48,622 bases of DNA, taken from Shigella phage vB_Shig_1KOFFS. The notes beneath the pieces are model-generated. The model did no database searches. It was not told the DNA's origin and was given only the letters and a program-made list of their open reading frames with translations. Below are positions 673 through 44,886 of this stretch, piece by piece. Made by a program: the position numbers and the translations under genes. The stretch is from the sequence record PV615260. One strand, given 5' to 3'. Numbering within the stretch: position 1 is the first letter of the stretch; each line of letters starts with the position of its first letter.

Positions 673-1803
673 ATGTCACCTAAAATCACAGACGAAGAAT
701 TCCTGGCCGCCCGCGAAGAAGGTAAAACATACCGCGAGATCGCGGAAGAGTTCGGCATGAACATTCGAAGCGTTGAACGTCGCGGCGTTCGCCTGGCGCG
801 ACAAGGACACCTACACGGAAACGCCCACGTTGCGAAGCATATCCCGGACGGCTTCGGCGTCAAAGGCACGTCGACGATGATTCGCGCGGACGGCTCCGAG
901 GTCGTTCGGTGGGTCAAGTCGGAAGTAGACCGCGATCGCATGGTCGCGCTTATGGAGGCAGCGCAGGCGGCTTTCTGCGAAGACCTTCCGCGAGCCGAAC
1001 CGCAACCGCTGGATGAATCGAAGTTCTACATTGAAGATCAGCTTGCCCTGTACCCGATCTTCGACTTGCATATTGGGGCAATGGCGCATAAGCATGAATG
1101 CGGCGAGAACTATGATACCAGCACGGCAGAGAAGGTTCTAAACCGCTTCTTTGATTATTCCGTTTCGGTTGCTCCGCAATCACAAAAGGCGGTTTTGTTG
1201 GTCGGCGGTGACTTCCTTCACAGTGACGGCCTGGACGCAGTAACCCCGGCAAGCGGTCACGTTCTCGATCAGGACAGCCGATACGCAAAACTTGTTTATG
1301 TTGCCATTCGTTCGCTGCGTCGCGCCGTTTCGCTACTGCTTAACAATCATGCAGAAGTTGAAGTGCAGGTGATTGAAGGCAACCACGACCAGGCCGGGAT
1401 GATCTGGCTACGCGCAGCGCTGGCGGCGTTCTATGAGAATGAACCGCGCGTTTTCGTTGATGTTAGTCCGGCGATCCTGCATCGCACCTTGTGGGGCAAA
1501 ACCATGCTGGGATATACTCATGGCCACACGATGAAAAAGCCGGAAACGCGCCTTGCTGCGATGGCTACCGACTTCCGTAAGGAGTTCGGCCAGTGCGACT
1601 ACATTTACACGCATTCCGGCCACTGGCATCACCAGACTGTAACGGAACACTCGTTAGGCATTGACGAAGTGCATGGCCAGTTGGGCGCAAAAGATGCCTA
1701 CGCAGCACGCGGCGGATGGCGATCATATCGGCAGGCTGCGGTGATTCTGTACAGCAAAGAATATGGCGAAGTAGGTCGCTTTATCTATCGCCCGAACATG
1801 TAA
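673..1803 (+). CDS. Calcineurin-like metallophosphoesterase with N-terminal helix-turn-helix domain
   Basis: Phosphoesterase motifs DLHIG, GGDFLHSDG and GNHD in order; N-terminal segment TYREIAEEFGMNIRSVERR resembles a sigma region-4 type HTH. Confidence 0.6.
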   Translation: MSPKITDEEFLAAREEGKTYREIAEEFGMNIRSVERRGVRLARQGHLHGNAHVAKHIPDGFGVKGTSTMIRADGSEVVRWVKSEVDRDRMVALMEAAQAAFCEDLPRAEPQPLDESKFYIEDQLALYPIFDLHIGAMAHKHECGENYDTSTAEKVLNRFFDYSVSVAPQSQKAVLLVGGDFLHSDGLDAVTPASGHVLDQDSRYAKLVYVAIRSLRRAVSLLLNNHAEVEVQVIEGNHDQAGMIWLRAALAAFYENEPRVFVDVSPAILHRTLWGKTMLGYTHGHTMKKPETRLAAMATDFRKEFGQCDYIYTHSGHWHHQTVTEHSLGIDEVHGQLGAKDAYAARGGWRSYRQAAVILYSKEYGEVGRFIYRPNM

Positions 1804-4690: not shown

Positions 4691-6259
4691 TTACCTCATG
4701 AACGACGGGTTGATAAAGACTTCGGAATCCATCACGCAGATAAAGCCTAATTCCTCCATCTTCGGCAATAAGCGTTCCTTAATCTTTTTGCTCACCCCAG
4801 CCTGGCCTTTGAAGATCTTCAGGTTGCGGCAGGCGTTATAAATGCCCTGGACGGTCATAACACCTTTTGCCTGCTTGCAACGACTGGCGATAACGTCATA
4901 CAGCGCTTTAATTTCCGCGCCCTCACCAGCAAATCCGGAAGAGTCAGCAGATGACAGGTAAGTTTTGCTCAACTCATGGAACATGATGATCGCTTCGTCA
5001 ATGGTTGCCGTGTCGATCTTCTTCGAACGCTTACCGCCGGGTTGCCAGTTCCGGATCGTGTGGATTACCGACGCCAGACGCATAACCTGCTTATCAAACT
5101 TACCCATCGCGCCGCGAAGCATAGTATGCGAATACTTGCCGCCGTCACCTAACTCAGGTTCTAATTCCTGGCGGGCCTTATTCAGTCTCCGCATTGCCGC
5201 GTCAGTAACCTGCAACTTAATGTTCGACTCGCTCATAATGTCATGAATCAGCCGGAAGTAATCCGCCTTCAGTGACTGGTCGATCGGCTCATAGGTCGAA
5301 TTCCCGTTTTCGTCGATGAACACGCGTTCGCCCAAACGTGTTTGCTCACGAACCAAAAGGAAACGCTCCGAGACACCGATCCCGCGAGAACCCGCTTGCA
5401 TGATGGCGTCGATGGTTTCATCCTGGGCAATTACGCAAATGCAGCCCAAAGCAACGAATGACATATTATTGCTAACGTCGGCACGAGCGATCGACACGTG
5501 GCCTTTATCCCATGCTTTGAGCACCAGTTCGCTGTTCGTCTTCTTGCCGCCATCGTTGCCATACGTGATCCCCAAAAGGCTGTTAACCGCAGTTGCCTCA
5601 TCGGAAATAACGGCAAAGTTTCCCTGGCGGTTGTTAATCTTCGCCAGACCTTCCGGGGTGGTATCGGATACCGGGAAAGTTAGGTCACACAATTTTTCAA
5701 GTTTCTCTTCCAGTTCGTCACGATCTTCGAAAAGTTTCACCATATCAGATTGCGACAACTCCCCTTTAAGCGCCTGCTTGTTGGCGGACAACTTCGCCAT
5801 GATTTTCTTACGCTCCTTCTTGCGCGACTCGTTAATGCGCTCGACTTCGGCCACGATCGGATCGATGGCCAGCGAGTTAATGGCAGACTTACCAGCGGAA
5901 GGCGGCTGCGACGTGATAACGTAAAGCGTCGTCGGTTGCTCACTGCCGTGATACTCGACCCAAAAGCGACCCATCATCGCGGCGGATACGGTTCCGAGAA
6001 AGTGCATGTAAGCGGATGATTCCGGGAACTGAACAGATCTGGCGGCATTGAGCGCCAGCTTGCCGACCACATCGTAATCATTGGCGATCGAGATTGTTGG
6101 GTATTTATCCGCGTTTACGTCGATATCTTTGGGCTTTGGCCAGAATGAAACGGAGTCACGATACCCGTTCGCACGAATCGCAACGCGCAGAGGACTGATC
6201 CCCTCCCTTTCTGCGATGGCGATAATATCTTGCGGTGATACGCGGTCATTTAAAAACAT
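4691..6259 (-). CDS. Large P-loop NTPase-like protein of unknown function (522 aa)
   Basis: Walker A-like PPSAGKS and Walker B-like AVISDEAT; RBS CAGGAGCAAGGG before ATG at 6259. Confidence 0.55.
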   Translation of the reverse strand: MFLNDRVSPQDIIAIAEREGISPLRVAIRANGYRDSVSFWPKPKDIDVNADKYPTISIANDYDVVGKLALNAARSVQFPESSAYMHFLGTVSAAMMGRFWVEYHGSEQPTTLYVITSQPPSAGKSAINSLAIDPIVAEVERINESRKKERKKIMAKLSANKQALKGELSQSDMVKLFEDRDELEEKLEKLCDLTFPVSDTTPEGLAKINNRQGNFAVISDEATAVNSLLGITYGNDGGKKTNSELVLKAWDKGHVSIARADVSNNMSFVALGCICVIAQDETIDAIMQAGSRGIGVSERFLLVREQTRLGERVFIDENGNSTYEPIDQSLKADYFRLIHDIMSESNIKLQVTDAAMRRLNKARQELEPELGDGGKYSHTMLRGAMGKFDKQVMRLASVIHTIRNWQPGGKRSKKIDTATIDEAIIMFHELSKTYLSSADSSGFAGEGAEIKALYDVIASRCKQAKGVMTVQGIYNACRNLKIFKGQAGVSKKIKERLLPKMEELGFICVMDSEVFINPSFMR

Positions 6260-9427: not shown

Positions 9428-9785
9428 AGCTTTAGACCCTTTGGCTCAATTCGTTTCGTTGAAGTCATCATAGCAAAGTCGATCGGGTGGCTTTTGACAA
9501 AAAATGCTATTCCTGCGATTGCTGATTATTCCACCGATTCGGAATAGTGGAATAGATGGTGATTGCACCTGATTCCCTGGTGATTAGTTTTGACGAATCA
9601 TGATTGCTTTTGATTGTTTCATTTTGCGCAATGACTTGGTGGAGTGTTTCATGATTTGCAACGAATTGCATAAATGTATGCACCATGCACGCAATTTGCC
9701 GATCGAAGCTGGCAGAACTGGAGTTGTGTTTCACCAACATTTACGCCGTGTGGGAGTGTGGGGGAGGGATAATCTTACCTAAAAA

Positions 9786-9897
9786 TTGCGCAAAAAGCGA
9801 CCAATATAAGCCCATATATAGATAGTAAGTATATGATAAATAATAATATTATTATTATTACTCTCTATCTTTATATATGTTTGGTAAGATTTCTCAG
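9786..9897. repeat. Inverted repeat copy A (about 110 bp, 47-bp AT-rich core at 9818-9864)
   Basis: Reverse-complement match to 42604-42715; the core atagatagtaagtatatgataaataa(t/c)aatattattattattactct differs at one position. Confidence 0.85.
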
Positions 9898-10014: not shown

Positions 10015-10043
10015 TTGACACCAAGGCTTGCGGCCAGTATTAT
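10015..10043 (+). promoter_or_regulatory. Sigma70 consensus-like promoter for the rightward early operon
   Basis: TTGACA at 10015-10020, 17-bp spacer, TATTAT at 10038-10043, about 50 bp upstream of ATG 10091. Confidence 0.6.
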
Positions 10044-41303: not shown

Positions 41304-42350
41304 TTAGCTATTTGTGCCGTATACGTCCGGGAACATGTATTTCACAAACTGCGGAGTAGGCAAAACGACTTCCGCCGCGTTTGACTCATATGATGGCCAT
41401 GAATCGTGCTTCACGCATTCCGCATACTGATGAATCACGCTTTGATACTGCTTGCGACCGATCTCGATCTGCTTGCTGGTCAGGGTGAACGCCAGCGGAG
41501 CAAACGGTGATTTTTTCTCCTGCGTTAGCAGTCTGACAACTACCGGGCGTTTTTCGTTGTAGGTCTTCACGAACAGATCGCGCTGCAATGCCATCTTGAG
41601 ATAGTAGCCCAAATTGAAGGCGAGTCGCCCGAAATCGTCCGGCTTGGAAGATTGCGTGGTTTTGTAGTCGGTAATCACCACGACCTCGAAAACCTCATCC
41701 GGGTTGAACCCCCACTCCTTGATGAGTTCGGGATCGGAAACAACGTCAACATGATCGAGTCGAACCTTAACCTTGACGCCGAAGATCTCACCGAAGATTG
41801 ACAATTCACGCTGTGCGGTAGGCGATTCGATACATGCGGCGTGTCGCGGGTTAGCCAGCATCACGCTGCGCATTTGAACAACGGCATCGAAATCAACATC
41901 CTTAACCAGCTTGCGCCCGGAGTTCATCGCGGCGCTTTCGTCGCACAGTTCAATCGCCCACCAAACATTTACGTCAATCCCGGCGCGATATGCCATTTCC
42001 AGAAGTTCCGGGTAATCCTTGTTGGACGTCCCAATCAGGCCACACGCTTTCAGCTTCGCAGACAATGCCGACTTCGACGTAATCAGATCTTTAACCTCGC
42101 CAGGAGAAGTCGCCCGCAGATACTCGCCATTAAATTTTGCCGTCTCAAGCATACAGGTATGCGAACAGGTTCCGAACGCCAGCGCGGCGGTTTCCTCACG
42201 CACCTTGTATTTCCAGTGCGCCGGGGATGTTGCGTAAATCTCGCCGAGGCTTGAGCCGCTAACGTACTCCGCGCACCAGGAATCAGGATCGTGATATTGC
42301 TCGTTAGTCAATTCACTGCTTGTGTATGCCCTGAAAATTGCTTCAGCCAT
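41304..42350 (-). CDS. Recombination exonuclease (PD-(D/E)xK family)
   Basis: 348-aa ORF upstream of erf and ssb; D..E.K-like segment VVITDYKTTQ; position in recombination module. Confidence 0.55.
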   Translation of the reverse strand: MAEAIFRAYTSSELTNEQYHDPDSWCAEYVSGSSLGEIYATSPAHWKYKVREETAALAFGTCSHTCMLETAKFNGEYLRATSPGEVKDLITSKSALSAKLKACGLIGTSNKDYPELLEMAYRAGIDVNVWWAIELCDESAAMNSGRKLVKDVDFDAVVQMRSVMLANPRHAACIESPTAQRELSIFGEIFGVKVKVRLDHVDVVSDPELIKEWGFNPDEVFEVVVITDYKTTQSSKPDDFGRLAFNLGYYLKMALQRDLFVKTYNEKRPVVVRLLTQEKKSPFAPLAFTLTSKQIEIGRKQYQSVIHQYAECVKHDSWPSYESNAAEVVLPTPQFVKYMFPDVYGTNS

Positions 42351-42383
42351 TGATATTGCTCCATTTGTGGTTTCGTTGCGTTA

Positions 42384-42425
42384 AGTATACGCATGACGAT
42401 TCCCGGCGCAAGTCAAAAAGTGCTA
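42384..42425 (-). promoter_or_regulatory. Promoter-like cassette variant upstream of the exonuclease operon
   Basis: On the - strand: TAGCACTTTTTGACT, 21-bp spacer, TATACT. Confidence 0.4.
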
Positions 42426-42468
42426 TCTGCGGTTGGTCAAAAAATGAGCGAAATTTACGTAAGATTTA

Positions 42469-42484
42469 GTAAGATGCATCTTAC
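42469..42484. promoter_or_regulatory. Perfect 16-bp palindrome GTAAGATGCATCTTAC (operator-like)
   Basis: Exact self-complementary sequence read directly. Confidence 0.7.
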
Positions 42485-42603
42485 GTGGTTTTTTCCATAT
42501 ATTTCATAAAGTTAACGCAAATCGGTAAGATGGTAAGATCCCTATAGGTAAATATCCATGAAAAAACTGGCGCGAAATCCAGCGAAAAAAGACACGTACC
42601 ACG

Positions 42604-42715
42604 GAGAAATCTTACCAAGATAAGTATAGAGAGATAGAGTAATAATAATAATATTGTTATTTATCATATACTTACTATCTATGTATCGCGGTTAATTGGT
42701 TAAATTTTGCGCGAA
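42604..42715. repeat. Inverted repeat copy B (about 110 bp, 47-bp core at 42636-42682)
   Basis: Reverse complement of 9786-9897; core identical apart from one base. Confidence 0.85.
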
Positions 42716-42721
42716 ATTTAC

Positions 42722-42737
42722 GTAAGATTAATCTTAC
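42722..42737. promoter_or_regulatory. Perfect 16-bp palindrome GTAAGATTAATCTTAC (operator-like)
   Basis: Exact self-complementary sequence; shares the GTAAGAT half-site with 42469-42484. Confidence 0.7.
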
Positions 42738-42796
42738 TAAATCTTACCTAAAGTGGTTCGACCAGTTGCAAGCCACTGAATTTCAGGCATAAAAAA

Positions 42797-42825
42797 AGGT
42801 AAGACTGATTTTCTCAATCTTACCT
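42797..42825. promoter_or_regulatory. Inverted repeat AGGTAAGA-N13-TCTTACCT (operator-like)
   Basis: Same GTAAGA half-site in a wider-spaced inverted arrangement. Confidence 0.55.
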
Positions 42826-42845
42826 AAATTCTGGTCAATATTTAA

Positions 42846-43805
42846 TCATAGAAGAGATGATGCCTTGTATAACTTACGCTCAAAGCCGAGCTTGAAGTTG
42901 TCACCGTTCGGAACGATAACCTTTAGATCCCGATCGTCTGCGGCTGCCAGCATATCCCGATCTCCACGACGGCAAACTACACGCATTTCTCGCTTACCTT
43001 CTCCGCCCTTGCCTTTATACCTGTACGCCACGATCTCGACGTTTGAAGGTATGATGCAGGCCCAAACGTCGCACTTGAACGAACTGGCAATATTGAAGTG
43101 CATCGCCTCAATCCAGGATCGAGCAAGGTAAATCGGCCCGTTACCGTCGTCGCTCTGATTGGTCACTATCACCGATCCGAAGGTCAGATCTCCAGCTAAC
43201 ATCTTCTCCCGGCCTTCTTCATCAATGAACAGGATATTGCAATACTCATCATCCAGCCCATCTTCATGCACGAGTTGCATCGGTAGCGCGTGAATTAGCT
43301 CCTGTCTGCCGTTCTCGTGAGTTTTTACGCCAACCTGATATGATTTGATATGCTCATTTTCAATGCCCTCATAGAGCGTTACAGGCGTGCTATCGACGGC
43401 CTCCGTTCTGTTTAAAACTGCCAGCACTCTTTCATGATCTGCCATCTTGCCGTAGTCATACCCGTTATCACGAGCTACCTGCTTGTTTCTCTTGACTACG
43501 TATTCTTGCGGAACCTTGCCGAGATAGCGCCCAAGAATGTTGATGCACTCGCTATACGGCTGGCCGCTTAACTTCATTAACCAGCCGATCCCCTTATCAG
43601 CACCGCAGCCGCCACAGTATGCGCCGCCGTCGCCGCGCGTTTCTAATTTGTCAGTCCAGCGGAATCTGTCTTTGCCGCCGCAGTTCGGGCAGTCCTGATG
43701 CTTGCCGTTGAAGTATCGAGAGTGTATGCCGCAAATGTTCTGCAACGCCTCGCGCCACATGCCAGCCATGTACGGCAAAACCTCTTTTTCATCGTAAAAA
43801 TCCAC
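42846..43805 (-). CDS. DNA primase (zinc-ribbon type)
   Basis: N-terminal zinc-binding motif CPNCGGKDRFRW..CGGCG typical of phage/plasmid primases; GTG start after RBS GGAGGT. Confidence 0.7.
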   Translation of the reverse strand: MDFYDEKEVLPYMAGMWREALQNICGIHSRYFNGKHQDCPNCGGKDRFRWTDKLETRGDGGAYCGGCGADKGIGWLMKLSGQPYSECINILGRYLGKVPQEYVVKRNKQVARDNGYDYGKMADHERVLAVLNRTEAVDSTPVTLYEGIENEHIKSYQVGVKTHENGRQELIHALPMQLVHEDGLDDEYCNILFIDEEGREKMLAGDLTFGSVIVTNQSDDGNGPIYLARSWIEAMHFNIASSFKCDVWACIIPSNVEIVAYRYKGKGGEGKREMRVVCRRGDRDMLAAADDRDLKVIVPNGDNFKLGFERKLYKASSLL

Positions 43806-43883
43806 GTCGTTACCTCCAAATAAAAAACGCCTACACGAGAATGATAACCCGGCAGGCGTTTAGTGTTTAGACAAATTGTGCTA
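43806..43883 (-). promoter_or_regulatory. Conserved promoter-like cassette (- strand) upstream of primase
   Basis: Reverse complement reads TAGCACAATTTGTCTAAAC, then hairpin and TATCAT-like element, then RBS. Confidence 0.45.
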
Positions 43884-44282
43884 TCGGACTACGCGGAGCA
43901 TTTCCCGGCGGTCGCATCGGCGCGTAACTGGCTTGCCGTTGCTGTCAAACCTTAAATCTGGTCGGCAGAATGAGGCGCGGAAACCTTTGCAATTGTTCCG
44001 GCGGTAGCTCTTGTGTACGAGATAAGCGCCATCGGCTGAGATCATGCCTCGCTTGCGCCACTGCTGAACGACCTGGATGCTAACCCCCAACTCTTTTGCC
44101 GTTCCAGCGATGCCACCGAAGGCATCAATAACAAGCTCCATCCGCGCAGTCAACCCGGCGCGAACCTCATCCTTCAGTACGTAGTAACCAGTCGGGCGTT
44201 TGCGCTTCTTCTTGTCCTTTCCGCGAGATGTTCCATTGTTGCCGTTCAAAGTTCGCTTGTCTACCTTTGCCATTTGTTCCAT
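43881..44282 (-). CDS. HTH DNA-binding protein (Cro/YdaS-like), candidate transcription regulator
   Basis: Segment GTAKELGVSIQVVQQWRKRGMIS resembles Cro/YdaS-type helix-turn-helix; basic N-terminus. Confidence 0.55.
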   Translation of the reverse strand: MEQMAKVDKRTLNGNNGTSRGKDKKKRKRPTGYYVLKDEVRAGLTARMELVIDAFGGIAGTAKELGVSIQVVQQWRKRGMISADGAYLVHKSYRRNNCKGFRASFCRPDLRFDSNGKPVTRRCDRREMLRVVR

Positions 44283-44295
44283 AATTTAGCCCTCA

Positions 44296-44373
44296 TAGCA
44301 CTTTTTGTTAAACATGATAAAATATGCTATGTATTATACACGCAACCATGCTAATGACAAATTAGGATTGCAC
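44296..44373 (+). promoter_or_regulatory. Conserved promoter-like cassette
   Basis: TAGCACTTTTTGTTAAAC followed about 22 bp later by TATTAT, with an extended -10-like TGATAAAAT nearer the box. Confidence 0.45.
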
Positions 44374-44886
44374 ATGGCAAGCACAGAAGAAGACGTAGCA
44401 TATTTTAAGCGACTATTTCGTTATGAAGGCGGAACACTGATTCGCAAAGTTACAACCAGTAGTCGTGCATTCGCTGGCGACTCCGTAGGGTGCGAGAACA
44501 ACGCTGGGTATTTACAGGTAAGCGTAAAAAGCAAACCCCTATACGTTCACCGAATCATTTGGGAAATGCATAATGGGCCGATCCCAGAAGGAATGGAGAT
44601 AGATCATATCAATCAGGTCAGAACAGATAACAGAATCGAAAACCTGCGACTGGTAAGCCACAAAGGAAACCTTAAAAACCAATCAATGAACAGTGGCAAT
44701 ACTAGCGGGCAATCTGGCGTAAGCTGGTTTAAGCGAGGCGGGAAGTGGAGGGCAACAATAAAGGTTGACAGAAGGCAAATACACATTGGTTACTTCGCGT
44801 CGTTTGATTCGGCAGTTGCCGCACGAAAAGCAGCAGAAAAACAATACGGTTTTCATGATAACCACGGAGCAGAGAAAAAGAAATGA
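44374..44886 (+). CDS. HNH homing endonuclease with AP2-type DNA-binding domain
   Basis: HNH motif EIDHINQVRTDNRIENLRLVSHKGN and C-terminal AP2-like SGVSWFKRGGKWRATIKVDRRQIHIGYF. Confidence 0.75.
   Translation: MASTEEDVAYFKRLFRYEGGTLIRKVTTSSRAFAGDSVGCENNAGYLQVSVKSKPLYVHRIIWEMHNGPIPEGMEIDHINQVRTDNRIENLRLVSHKGNLKNQSMNSGNTSGQSGVSWFKRGGKWRATIKVDRRQIHIGYFASFDSAVAARKAAEKQYGFHDNHGAEKKK

What the first reader, a model, noticed from the sequence alone, without database searches (positions are those of the whole stretch)
42351..42845. Operator-like array: two perfect 16-bp palindromes and a third inverted repeat sharing GTAAGAT half-sites
The gene-free gap between primase and exonuclease holds GTAAGATGCATCTTAC (42469-42484), GTAAGATTAATCTTAC (42722-42737) and AGGTAAGA-N13-TCTTACCT (42797-42825), plus a 19-bp direct repeat GCGAAATTTACGTAAGATT (42448 and 42711) and three AATCTTACCTAAA 13-mers (also at 9771). 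This looks like a multi-operator site for a dimeric DNA-binding protein, unexpected in a phage with no repressor or integrase; the Cro/YdaS-like HTH protein (43881-44282) is a candidate binder.
Basis: partly seen in the sequence, partly recalled or inferred. Interest (0 to 1): 0.65.

Follow-up and report, generated by a model that had tools for sequence, protein, structure and literature searches.

The report
Candidate replication origin of a T1-like phage
The gap after the primase gene of this T1-like Klebsiella phage holds eleven conserved copies of a 7-base motif around one of the two most AT-rich stretches of the genome, which looks most like a replication origin, something not yet identified for the T1 phage family, rather than a repressor's operator array.

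Summary
GTAAGAT occurs 17 times in the window (3.7 expected). Ten copies plus one GTAAGAC lie in the 495-bp gap, the most significant k-mer cluster in the genome (p about 6e-15).

Across 28 distinct relatives the 7-mers are 98% conserved and the spacers 72%. The central 2 bp of the second palindrome vary freely, which marks protein-binding half-sites.

The third inverted repeat is the primase gene's intrinsic terminator.

The motifs flank a 20%-GC core, and a paralogous copy of that core lies at 9770-9895. These are the two most AT-rich spots in the genome. The same holds in T1, Rtp and K50, each with its own short repeat.

No site overlaps a promoter. The Cro-like protein proposed as binder is not supported.

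The layout matches phage P4 (primase, terminator, crr iterons, distant ori) and SaPI origins. The phage encodes an MCM-like DUF3987 helicase with a predicted C-terminal winged helix, a plausible initiator.

Best reading: an iteron-plus-unwinding-element origin (confidence about 0.55). This is a new member of a known kind. T1-family origins are reported as not found.

The parts
42459..42484 (.). Site cluster A: GTAAGAT at 42459(+), 42469(+) and 42478(-). This is a direct pair 10 bp apart plus the 7-2-7 palindrome GTAAGATGCATCTTAC.
   Evidence: The sites are kept in 26-27 of 28 distinct relatives.
42525..42539 (+). Site cluster B: tandem GGTAAGATGGTAAGAT (8-bp spacing), followed by the invariant CCTATAGGTAAATA.
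   Evidence: kept in 27-28 of 28.
42609..42615 (-). Site flanking the low-coordinate side of the AT core (AATCTTACC on the + strand).
   Evidence: 28 of 28. It has a counterpart in the paralog at 9772.
42607..42686 (.). AT-rich core (20% GC against 50.5% for the genome), proposed DNA-unwinding element. Within it, TAATAATAATAATAT...TATCATATACTTAC is nearly invariant.
   Evidence: second-lowest GC window of the genome; core 89% conserved.
42722..42747 (.). Site cluster D: GTAAGAT at 42722(+), 42731(-) and 42741(-). This is the mirror image of cluster A. The palindrome centre is variable in relatives.
42790..42825 (-). Intrinsic terminator of the primase gene. Its stem is built from two motif copies (GTAAGAC at 42799(+), GTAAGAT at 42817(-)) and is followed by seven T on the - strand.
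   Evidence: Annotated as a terminator in phages Smiley and KP36. Stem kept and loop varied in relatives.
42433..42466 (+). 34-bp direct-repeat unit TTGGTY-N-GCGAAATTTACGTAAGATT. The second copy is at 42696-42729 and a third, inverted copy lies in the paralog (about 9770-9803).
   Evidence: (D2).
42384..42426 (-). Promoter-type 21-nt family repeat (ATAGCACTTTTTGAC...) with the -10-like TATACT, upstream of the exonuclease gene. It is not part of the array but bounds it.
   Evidence: The repeat is described for TLS and T1 in PMC11447400.
9770..9895 (+). Paralogous module: ATCTTAC, AT core (16% GC, the lowest in the genome), GTAAGAT. It lies in the divergent intergenic region that corresponds to the left end of the T1 genome.
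   Evidence: Position relative to T1.
4691..6259 (-). DUF3987 (SF6, MCM-like) helicase with Walker A and B motifs and a predicted C-terminal winged helix (about aa 446-519). Candidate initiator and iteron binder.
   Evidence: Literature: PMC4889955, PMC11724360.
42846..43805 (-). P4-alpha-type primase (Zn-ribbon) lying immediately upstream of the terminator and array.
43881..44282 (-). Not supported as the GTAAGAT binder.

Best explanation
The gap holds a replication-origin-type element. A roughly 80-bp AT-rich unwinding core (about 42607-42686) is flanked on both sides by eleven copies of the heptamer GTAAGAT, in both orientations. The element is insulated from upstream transcription by the primase terminator and ends before the exonuclease promoter. 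A shorter paralog at 9770-9895 (AT core with one inverted pair of sites) is a second copy of the same element.

Proposed mechanism:
1. A phage-encoded initiator binds the heptamers as dimers or arrays. The most likely candidate is the MCM-like DUF3987 helicase (4691-6259), acting through its C-terminal winged helix.
2. It assembles on each side of the AT core and melts it.
3. It loads itself as the replicative helicase, and the adjacent P4-alpha-type primase then primes synthesis.
4. The two modules act either as two origins or as a cooperating pair, like P4 ori and crr.

Shown: the array, its statistics, its conservation footprint, the AT extremes, the paralogy, the terminator, the equivalent elements in other Drexlerviridae, and the predicted fold of the helicase.

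Inferred: that the sites are bound by that helicase, and that replication starts here.
For: 1. The motif cluster is far beyond chance.
2. Sites are 98% conserved against 72% for spacers in divergent relatives. Palindrome centres are free, and 11 sites are kept in 24 of 28 sequences.
3. The two lowest-GC 80-bp windows of the whole genome are this core and its paralog. The same holds in T1, Rtp and K50. In five further contigs the lowest-GC window lies in the divergent (left-end) intergenic region, which in the distant L053 is the region directly upstream of the helicase gene.
4. Within each genome the two modules are paralogs in the same orientation relative to the downstream operon.
5. Each lineage has its own short repeat concentrated there. 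This window: TCTTAC, 13 of 24 (0.57 expected). T1: GTTACA, 9 of 24 (0.52 expected). Contig L052: one inverted copy plus three GTAACA copies at 10-bp spacing beside the core. The distant relative L053: TGGGGA/TCCCCA inverted pairs on both sides of the core, directly upstream of its DUF3987 helicase and primase genes.
6. No site overlaps a promoter-like element. The array lies between a terminator and a promoter.
7. The layout equals P4: alpha primase, terminator, crr with ten 8-mer iterons in both orientations, and a second iteron set 4.7 kb away. It also matches the published SaPI ori: 6-12 short iterons, a central AT-rich region, opposite orientations, and Rep binding through a C-terminal winged helix (PMC9371898).
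8. The DUF3987 protein models with pLDDT 89.6. All 50 top PDB matches are MCM subunits (best E = 8e-6). It ends in a winged helix, in agreement with PMC4889955.
9. That C-terminal domain evolves faster than the rest of the protein (39-55% against 56-73% identity). It groups by motif type: this window with P0003 (TCTTACC), and T1 with P0106 (GTAACA).
10. Origins of T1-like phages are reported as not found (PMC7718038; PMC11447400).
Against: - There are no experimental data. Nothing shows that replication starts here or that any protein binds.
- The AT core is conserved in exact sequence (89%), more than simple meltability needs. This could equally reflect a promoter, an IHF or H-NS site, or another specific recognition.
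- In T1, Rtp, K50 and Stevie the equivalent element sits upstream of the exonuclease operon, not next to the primase. Primase adjacency is therefore specific to weberviruses.
- Repeats are weak in K50, Stevie and L050.
- The grouping of the winged helix with motif type is confounded by overall relatedness.
- T1 and Rtp share a GTTAC-type motif but differ in the putative recognition helix.
- The isolated C-terminal domain gives only weak, generic winged-helix matches (best E = 0.06). It has no sequence similarity to the P4 alpha origin-binding domain.
Confidence: 0.55

Rival explanations
1. Transcriptional control region. The heptamers are operator or activator sites for a phage (or host) regulator. 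This regulator controls the exonuclease-Erf-SSB operon and, through the paralog, the left early operon. The AT core acts as an UP element, bent DNA or a promoter.
For: - Both modules lie upstream of operons, in a fixed orientation relative to them.
- The 7-2-7 palindromes with a free centre are typical of dimeric helix-turn-helix proteins.
- The AT core is conserved in sequence, not only in composition.
- TAAGAT resembles a -10 hexamer (sequence).
Against: - No site overlaps the promoter-like elements. The nearest site is about 36 bp from the exonuclease promoter motif, and 125 bp and 260 bp from the promoters around the paralog.
- The scan finds no sigma-70 promoter in the gap.
- The TG of the apparent extended -10 (TGGTAAGAT) is not conserved in the Domnhall group.
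- Neither recognisable HTH protein tracks the motif.
- The regulator's own promoter region lacks the motif.
- Eleven sites in mixed spacing and orientation on both sides of a 20%-GC core are unusual for an operator.
Confidence: 0.2
2. Packaging-related or architectural site. The heptamers bind the small terminase subunit or a nucleoid-type protein (a secondary pac-like site, or a DNA-condensation or looping site).
For: - The paralog lies about 100-200 bp from where related records and T1 place the genome left end and pac.
- pac sites of some phages are arrays of short repeats around AT-rich or bent DNA (own knowledge: P1, SPP1).
Against: - The large array is about 33 kb from the pac-end region, and the pac-side copy has only two sites.
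- A separate set of repeats (a TGCGCAA cluster, with GATTGC/TGATT seen by eye) lies nearer the terminus position.
- Nothing indicates a second set of genome termini.
Confidence: 0.07
3. RNA-level hairpins only. The palindromes act as terminators or RNA structures, and the shared heptamer is a by-product of duplication.
For: - The third inverted repeat is a good terminator.
- Palindrome 1 is followed by GTGG and a T run on the + strand.
Against: - The 16-bp palindromes fold weakly (-5.5 to -6.1 kcal/mol).
- Single and tandem direct copies cannot form hairpins.
- Two single half-site changes break the palindrome without compensation.
- Rfam gives no match.
- The candidate short transcript with a terminator at 42583-42566 is not conserved.
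Confidence: 0.05
4. Host response-regulator sites. Both palindromes fit the RcsB-box pattern TNRGA-N4-TCYNA. That consensus is recalled from memory, not checked against a paper. On this reading the phage reads the host's capsule or envelope-stress state.
For: TAAGA-TGCA-TCTTA and TAAGA-TTAA-TCTTA both fit the remembered consensus (sequence). The host is a capsulated Klebsiella.
Against: - K50, which also infects Klebsiella/Raoultella, has the homologous modules but no GTAAGAT.
- T1 and Rtp (E. coli, which also has RcsB) carry other motifs.
- The tandem direct copies at 8- and 10-bp spacing do not fit a dimer box.
Confidence: 0.04

Closest known systems
Satellite phage P4 ori and crr (alpha protein type-I iterons TGTTCACC)
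   Same: - Same gene layout: a P4-alpha-type primase gene, then a rho-independent terminator, then about 300 bp holding ten short (8-bp) repeats in both orientations at 9-10 bp and larger spacings.
- A second iteron set elsewhere in the genome.
- The primase of this phage shares the Zn-ribbon region with P4 alpha.
- Relatives (Stevie, K50) carry TGTTCAC beside their AT cores.
   Different: - The motif here is GTAAGAT/ATCTTAC, not TGTTCACC.
- Primase and helicase are separate proteins here, and the helicase is DUF3987/MCM-like rather than the helicase of P4 alpha.
- There is no sequence similarity to the alpha origin-binding domain.
- P4 crr is two 120-bp direct repeats, whereas this array is mirror-symmetric around an extreme AT core.
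SaPI (staphylococcal pathogenicity island) replication origins with self-loading Rep helicases
   Same: - Published description: pri, then rep, then ori.
- 6-12 penta- or hexamer iterons, with an AT-rich centre and half the iterons on each side.
- At least two iterons on each side pointing in opposite directions.
- Rep is an SF3 or MCM-type helicase that binds the iterons through a C-terminal winged helix (PMC9371898).
- Here there are 11 heptamers, an AT centre, opposite orientations, and an MCM-like helicase with a predicted C-terminal winged helix.
   Different: - The helicase gene is about 12 kb from the array going round the circular map (36 kb within the window), not adjacent to it.
- There are two paralogous modules per genome.
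- The host and element type differ (a virulent enterobacterial siphovirus).
- Binding and melting are untested.
Bacillus phage SPP1 oriL and oriR (own knowledge, not checked with tools)
   Same: A pac-type siphovirus with two distant origin copies. Each has initiator-binding repeats next to an AT-rich region. It also has an exonuclease, annealing-protein and SSB recombination module.
   Different: The SPP1 initiator G38P is a different protein family. oriL lies inside the initiator gene. The repeats are longer direct boxes.
Lambda-type operator arrays (OR/OL) bound by Cro/CI
   Same: Several inverted-repeat sites with conserved half-sites and a variable centre. A Cro-like gene is present in the phage.
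   Different: Lambda operators overlap the promoters they control and sit next to the regulator genes. Here no site overlaps a promoter, the Cro-like gene's own control region lacks the motif, and the sites surround an AT core.
The 21-nt intergenic repeat aaATAGCACnnnTTGnTAAAA of T1-like phages (TLS paper)
   Same: It is another family-wide repeated non-coding element of unknown function. One copy bounds the gap.
   Different: It is a different sequence, with single copies about 76 nt upstream of start codons in the direction of transcription. It is conserved across all genera, whereas the GTAAGAT-type repeats are lineage-specific and clustered.

Membership tests
Iteron-plus-DUE replication origin (P4 ori/crr and SaPI ori type) | A cluster of many short repeats in non-coding DNA, far above chance. 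| tested here: met
   11 sites in 495 bp against 1.2 expected. Top k-mer cluster of the genome, p = 6e-15.
Iteron-plus-DUE replication origin (P4 ori/crr and SaPI ori type) | An AT-rich, easily melted segment with repeats on both sides in opposite orientations. | tested here: met
   The 20%-GC core at 42607-42686 is flanked by ATCTTAC (42609) and GTAAGAT (42722), with further sites on both sides. It is the second-lowest GC window of the genome, and the lowest is its paralog.
Iteron-plus-DUE replication origin (P4 ori/crr and SaPI ori type) | Repeats conserved as footprints, and lineage-specific in sequence among related replicons. | tested here: met
   98% against 72% conservation. TCTTAC, GTTACA, GTAACA and TCCCCA types occur in different lineages.
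Iteron-plus-DUE replication origin (P4 ori/crr and SaPI ori type) | Location next to the replication genes (primase or initiator-helicase). | tested here: inconclusive
   Directly downstream of the primase in weberviruses and SXFY507. Next to the DUF3987 helicase and primase genes in L053. Upstream of the exonuclease operon and away from the primase in T1, Rtp, K50 and Stevie.
Iteron-plus-DUE replication origin (P4 ori/crr and SaPI ori type) | A cognate initiator with a sequence-specific DNA-binding domain that binds the repeats. | tested here: inconclusive
   An MCM-like DUF3987 helicase with a predicted C-terminal winged helix exists. That domain diverges faster than the rest of the protein. 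Binding itself is not testable here.
Iteron-plus-DUE replication origin (P4 ori/crr and SaPI ori type) | Replication starts there, and the fragment confers initiator-dependent replication. | not testable with these tools
   This needs marker-frequency sequencing, ori cloning and melting assays.
   The palindrome-2 centre is TA, TC, GC or GA while the half-sites stay fixed.
   No sigma-70-like promoter in the gap. The exonuclease promoter motif at 42426-42384 is free of sites. Around the paralog, the promoters at 10015-10043 and about 9512-9465 are 125-260 bp from the sites.
   The recognition helix of the Cro-like protein differs between two phages that share the motif. There is no GTAAGAT in 44283-44374. 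The HTH of the 673-1803 product has an identical recognition helix in K50, which lacks the motif.
Intrinsic (rho-independent) terminator (third inverted repeat only) | A stable stem-loop followed at once by a U run, downstream of a stop codon on the coding strand. | tested here: met
   12-bp stem, 5-nt loop, seven U, -16.8 kcal/mol, z = -5.4. It starts about 20 nt after the primase stop. The stem is kept and the loop varies in the Domnhall group. SXFY507 lacks the U run.
pac site (headful packaging recognition site) | Lies at or near the first-cut terminus or the terminase genes. | tested here: not met
   The gap is about 33 kb from the region that corresponds to the T1 left end, and about 25 kb from the inferred terminase position. 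Only the small paralog is near that end.

The most novel reading that the evidence does not exclude
The two paralogous AT-core and heptamer modules (42.4-42.8 kb and 9.77-9.90 kb) are the undiscovered replication origins of the T1 family. They work as a cooperating pair, like P4 ori and crr. The MCM-like SF6 (DUF3987) helicase recognises the heptamers through its winged helix and loads itself head-to-head on either side of the AT core. This would be a bacterial-virus counterpart of MCM double-hexamer loading at a sequence-defined origin. Iteron and winged helix would co-evolve lineage by lineage across Drexlerviridae.
Probability: 0.25. Interest if true: 0.75.

Novelty: new member of a known kind. 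Interest (0 to 1): 0.58.

Why it matters
T1 is one of the classical T phages, and Drexlerviridae, including the weberviruses used against Klebsiella, are among the most often isolated therapeutic phages. Even so, two genome papers state that no origin of replication could be found (PMC7718038; PMC11447400). This analysis gives precise candidate origins that are conserved across the family. There are two per genome, and in every genome examined they are the most AT-rich spots. It also names the repeats and a candidate initiator, the MCM-like DUF3987 helicase. That makes the open question directly testable. It would also help with engineering (minimal replicons, phage-dependent plasmids, and sites to avoid when inserting payloads) and with annotation of more than 340 deposited genomes in which the region is unannotated or carries spurious small ORFs.

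Tried and rejected
- **Rfam, permissive threshold, on 42000-43200:** no match.
- **Small RNA.** An apparent extended -10 (TGGTAAGAT) is followed by a terminator-like hairpin at 42583-42566. The hairpin is no better than shuffles (z = -0.75). That stretch is the least conserved of the gap, and the TG is lost in the Domnhall group.
- **Small ORFs** (42542-42667 and 42481-42618, annotated in some records). Both fall largely within the least conserved stretch of the gap, where relatives carry indels.
- **Miniature transposon.** The 125-bp module has 9-13-bp inverted ends, but it sits at the same two genomic positions across genera.
- **Sequence similarity of any window protein to the P4 alpha origin-binding domain.** None was found; only the primase Zn-ribbon matches.
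- **Cro-like HTH as binder.** No covariation, and no sites at its own promoter.
- **HTH of the metallophosphoesterase 673-1803 as binder.** Its recognition helix is identical in K50, which lacks the motif.
- **Apparent symmetric change in palindrome 1.** The two changes turned out to be in two different sequences, so there is no compensation.
- **Record ends falling inside the AT core of the paralog** (Roth47, cp25). These are judged to be assembly breaks, not termini (inference).
- **Literature searches** for GTAAGAT, for transcription start sites in Drexlerviridae, and for webervirus transcriptomes gave nothing relevant.
Full report
**Identity and setting.** The window is a Webervirus, a T1-like Klebsiella siphovirus of the Drexlerviridae. 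The 1-kb region around the gap matches 344 phage records, 339 of them Klebsiella phages, at 80-98% identity. On the - strand the gene order is:
- Cro-like regulator (43881-44282)
- Zn-ribbon primase (42846-43805)
- the 495-bp gap
- PD-(D/E)XK exonuclease (41304-42350)
- Erf
- SSB
- tail spike

The gap is therefore downstream of the primase and upstream of the recombination operon.

**Checking the observation.**
- GTAAGAT occurs 17 times in the window against 3.68 +/- 1.83 in shuffles.
- Ten exact copies and one GTAAGAC lie in the gap, and two more lie in a second locus.
- In an unbiased scan of all 6- and 7-mers for clustering, ATCTTAC/GTAAGAT is the top cluster of the genome (p = 6e-15). The next unrelated k-mers are CAG repeats inside a gene.
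- The window has only three perfect 16-bp palindromes. Two are the reported ones, and the third lies in the AT core of the second locus.

**Anatomy.** Read along the + strand, the gap contains the following.
1. The promoter-type family repeat ATAGCACTTTTTG with a -10-like TATACT on the - strand (42426-42384). It serves the exonuclease gene.
2. Cluster A at 42459(+), 42469(+), 42478(-).
3. Cluster B at 42525(+), 42533(+).
4. A single site at 42609(-).
5. An AT core with 20% GC over 42607-42686.
6. Cluster D at 42722(+), 42731(-), 42741(-), the mirror image of cluster A.
7. A hairpin at 42797-42825 whose arms are two more motif copies.

On the - strand that hairpin is a 12-bp stem with a 5-nt loop, followed by seven U. 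Its energy is -16.8 kcal/mol and z = -5.4. It is the primase terminator, and phages Smiley and KP36 annotate it as such. The 16-bp palindromes themselves fold weakly, at -5.5 to -6.1 kcal/mol.

**A paralog.** The central 125 bp (42604-42730) recurs at 9770-9895 on the other strand, at 86-90% identity: ATCTTAC, the same AT core, then GTAAGAT. It lies in the 660-bp divergent intergenic region between the leftward genes and the small rightward early genes. In T1 that region holds the genome's left end and terminal repeat, and the pac site is said to lie there in T1-like phages. Several webervirus records start within about 60-250 bp of it. A near-consensus sigma-70 promoter (TTGACA-17-TATTAT, 10015-10043) and a leftward ATAGCA-type promoter (about 9512-9465) flank it at a distance.

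**Conservation footprint.** I collected 28 distinct versions of the gap, with 58-98% identity to the window. They came from GenBank and from 25 IMG/VR contigs found with the pattern GGTAAGATGGTAANNNNCCTATAG.
- In the 15 divergent sequences, the 77 site positions are 98.2% identical to the window. The 321 other positions between 42433 and 42830 are 71.8% identical (Mann-Whitney p = 5e-11). The AT core is 88.7% identical.
- Each site is kept in 26-28 of 28 sequences, and 24 of 28 sequences keep all 11.
- The centre of palindrome 2 is TA here but TC, GC or GA in relatives, while both half-sites stay fixed. Two single half-site changes, in different sequences, are uncompensated.

This is the pattern of protein-binding half-sites, not of a base-paired structure. 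The stretch 42556-42606, which falls within the small ORFs some records annotate, is the least conserved and carries indels.

**The same element across the family.**
- In the window, T1, Rtp and K50, the two lowest-GC 80-bp windows of the entire genome are the left-end module and the module upstream of the exonuclease operon. The values are 10-21% GC in genomes of 44-50% GC.
- Within each genome the two modules are paralogs in the same orientation relative to the downstream operon. Local alignment scores are 146, 141 and 66 in the same orientation, against 48, 28 and 36 inverted. Similarity between genera is low.
- Each lineage concentrates its own short repeat there:
  - window: TCTTAC, 13 of 24 genome-wide, 0.57 expected
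  - T1: GTTACA, 9 of 24, 0.52 expected
  - Rtp: GTTAC[AGC], 7 of 81, 1.55 expected
  - K50 and Stevie: only two GTTCAC each
- In five further contigs recovered through the helicase, the lowest-GC window again lies in the divergent region.
- Contig L052 has TGTTAC followed by three GTAACA copies at 10-bp spacing beside the core.
- Contig L049 has CTTACC/GTAAGA sites on both sides of the core.
- The distant L053 has TGGGGA-N-TCCCCA pairs on both sides of its core, directly upstream of its DUF3987 helicase and next to the primase.

**Operators.** The consensus scan finds no sigma-70 promoter in the gap. None of the 11 sites overlaps the exonuclease promoter motif, and the sites of the paralog are 125-260 bp from the promoters around it. 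An apparent extended -10 (TGGTAAGAT) loses its TG in the Domnhall group.

The Cro-like protein is 54-71% identical across genera with different motifs. Its recognition helix also differs between this phage (SIQVVQQW) and SXFY507 (TYQALQNW), which share GTAAGAT. Its own 90-bp control region has no GTAAGAT. Instead it holds an inverted pair of ATAGCA motifs. That pair belongs to the 21-nt repeat known from TLS, T1 and Rtp, whose function is an open question (PMC11447400). I infer that this regulator more probably reads that family-wide repeat.

The 673-1803 product is a metallophosphoesterase with an N-terminal region-4/LuxR-like HTH. Its recognition helix is identical in K50, which lacks the motif.

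I also considered a host factor. The RcsB-box pattern, which I recalled from memory, fits both palindromes. This reading is disfavoured because K50 also infects Klebsiella/Raoultella and lacks the motif.

**Origin-type comparison.** In the annotated P4 genome, the alpha primase gene is followed by its terminator and then by crr. The crr region is 300 bp with ten type-1 8-mers (TGTTCACC and variants) in both orientations. The ori, with six more, lies 4.7 kb away. This is the same layout as primase, terminator, GTAAGAT array and distant second module. The window's primase shares the Zn-ribbon region with P4 alpha (E = 1.6e-4; T1: 3e-10).

SaPI origins are described as follows (PMC9371898):
- 6-12 penta- or hexamer iterons
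- an AT-rich centre, with at least two iterons on each side in opposite directions
- binding by the C-terminal winged helix of a self-loading SF3 or MCM-type Rep helicase

**A candidate initiator.** The 522-aa product of 4691-6259 carries DUF3987 and Walker A and B motifs.
- With a 31-sequence alignment it models at pLDDT 89.6 and pTM 0.86.
- All 50 top PDB matches are MCM2-7 subunits, with a best E of 8e-6 and 29 matches at E <= 1e-3.
- Its C-terminus is a helix-strand-helix-helix-hairpin winged helix at pLDDT about 86-91.
- On its own, the C-terminal domain gives only weak, generic winged-helix, ORC, MCM8 and RuvB matches, with a best E of 0.06.

This agrees with the literature. DUF3987 proteins are SF6 helicases distantly related to MCM. 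They are associated with primases, end in a winged helix-turn-helix, and are presumed to be replicative helicases (PMC4889955). One member has demonstrated helicase activity (PMC11724360).

Residues 440-522 diverge faster than residues 1-439: Rtp 39% against 71%, K50 43% against 67%, and P0002-P0004 53-55% against 72-73%. The domain also groups with motif type:
- window and P0003 with TCTTACC (the left-end module of the P0002 contig has only one copy of each orientation)
- T1, P0093 and P0106 with GTAACA

The grouping is suggestive only, because it is confounded by relatedness.

**Conclusion.** The array is real, strongly selected and almost certainly protein-bound. One of the three inverted repeats is a terminator.

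The best-supported reading is a replication-origin-type element, with iterons around an unwinding core. It is present twice per genome and conserved in architecture across Drexlerviridae. The MCM-like DUF3987 helicase is the most plausible binder. A transcriptional control region bound by an unidentified regulator remains the main rival.

Two genome papers state that no origin could be identified in T1-like phages, and I found no description of these modules. This is therefore an undescribed member of a known kind of element, and it is directly testable.

Noticed in passing
window 10666, 11233, 12387, 13509, 44295, 47323 (+) and 42426 (-): There are seven copies of ATAGCACTTTTTG(N)TAAAA. Each has a -10-like hexamer (TATAGT, TATTAT, CATAAT, TATCAT, TATACT and similar) 20-22 nt after the TTGnTA, often with a hairpin in between and a shared leader (CATCGAAAC...GGAG). 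This is the 21-nt repeat published for TLS, T1 and Rtp with unknown function. The 20-22 nt spacing is too long for a normal -35 element, which suggests an activator-dependent promoter class.
   Followed up: partly
window 44283-44374: An inverted pair of ATAGCA motifs (CATAGCACTTTTT / AAAATATGCTATG) lies between the Cro-like regulator gene and the rightward operon. This looks like the regulator's own control site. It hints that the regulator reads the 21-nt family repeat.
   Followed up: partly
window 44305-44886 (+; probable ATG at 44375): An ORF with HNH-endonuclease-like motifs (seen by eye in the translation; no family scan was run) is inserted between the regulator and the SF2 helicase gene. 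In phage Smiley the helicase follows the regulator directly.
   Followed up: no
window 9520-9700: Between the leftward promoter and the paralogous module there is a cluster of TGCGCAA (6 of 23 genome-wide), with GATTGC/TGATT seen by eye. It lies at the position that corresponds to position 1 of the T1 sequence and to the start of several webervirus records. These repeats are candidate pac or terminase recognition repeats.
   Followed up: partly
window 10015-10043 (+): A near-consensus sigma-70 promoter (TTGACA-17-TATTAT) lies upstream of the first small early gene (start about 10092). It is one of very few consensus promoters in the genome.
   Followed up: no
window 673-1803 (+): The product annotated as 'sigma-70 region 4 protein' or 'DNA repair exonuclease' is a calcineurin-type metallophosphoesterase (motifs DLHIG, GGDFLH, GNHD, HGH, GHWH). 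It carries a 40-aa N-terminal LuxR/region-4-like HTH and is 65-66% identical in T1, Rtp and K50.
   Followed up: partly
PLSDB record CP124687.1 (hit H171): A 49,647-bp 'plasmid' of Paraclostridium bifermentans matches the gap at 94.5% identity over its full length. It is evidently a webervirus genome misassigned or carried as a contaminant in that assembly.
   Followed up: no
L053 9307-9782 (ENA metagenome contig, helicase 39% identical): A distant relative with a different gene order has the AT core and inverted TGGGGA/TCCCCA pairs directly upstream of its DUF3987 helicase and next to the primase, SF2 helicase, exonuclease, Erf and SSB. This is a compact replication-recombination module with its putative origin.
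   Followed up: partly
L048 6353-6400 (contig carrying P0002): Beside the AT core of this SXFY507-like phage there are three direct ATGAACA repeats (TGTTCAT on the other strand, close to the P4 iteron TGTTCACC), in addition to one GTAAGAT and one TCTTACC. This is possibly a mixed or transitional iteron set.
   Followed up: no
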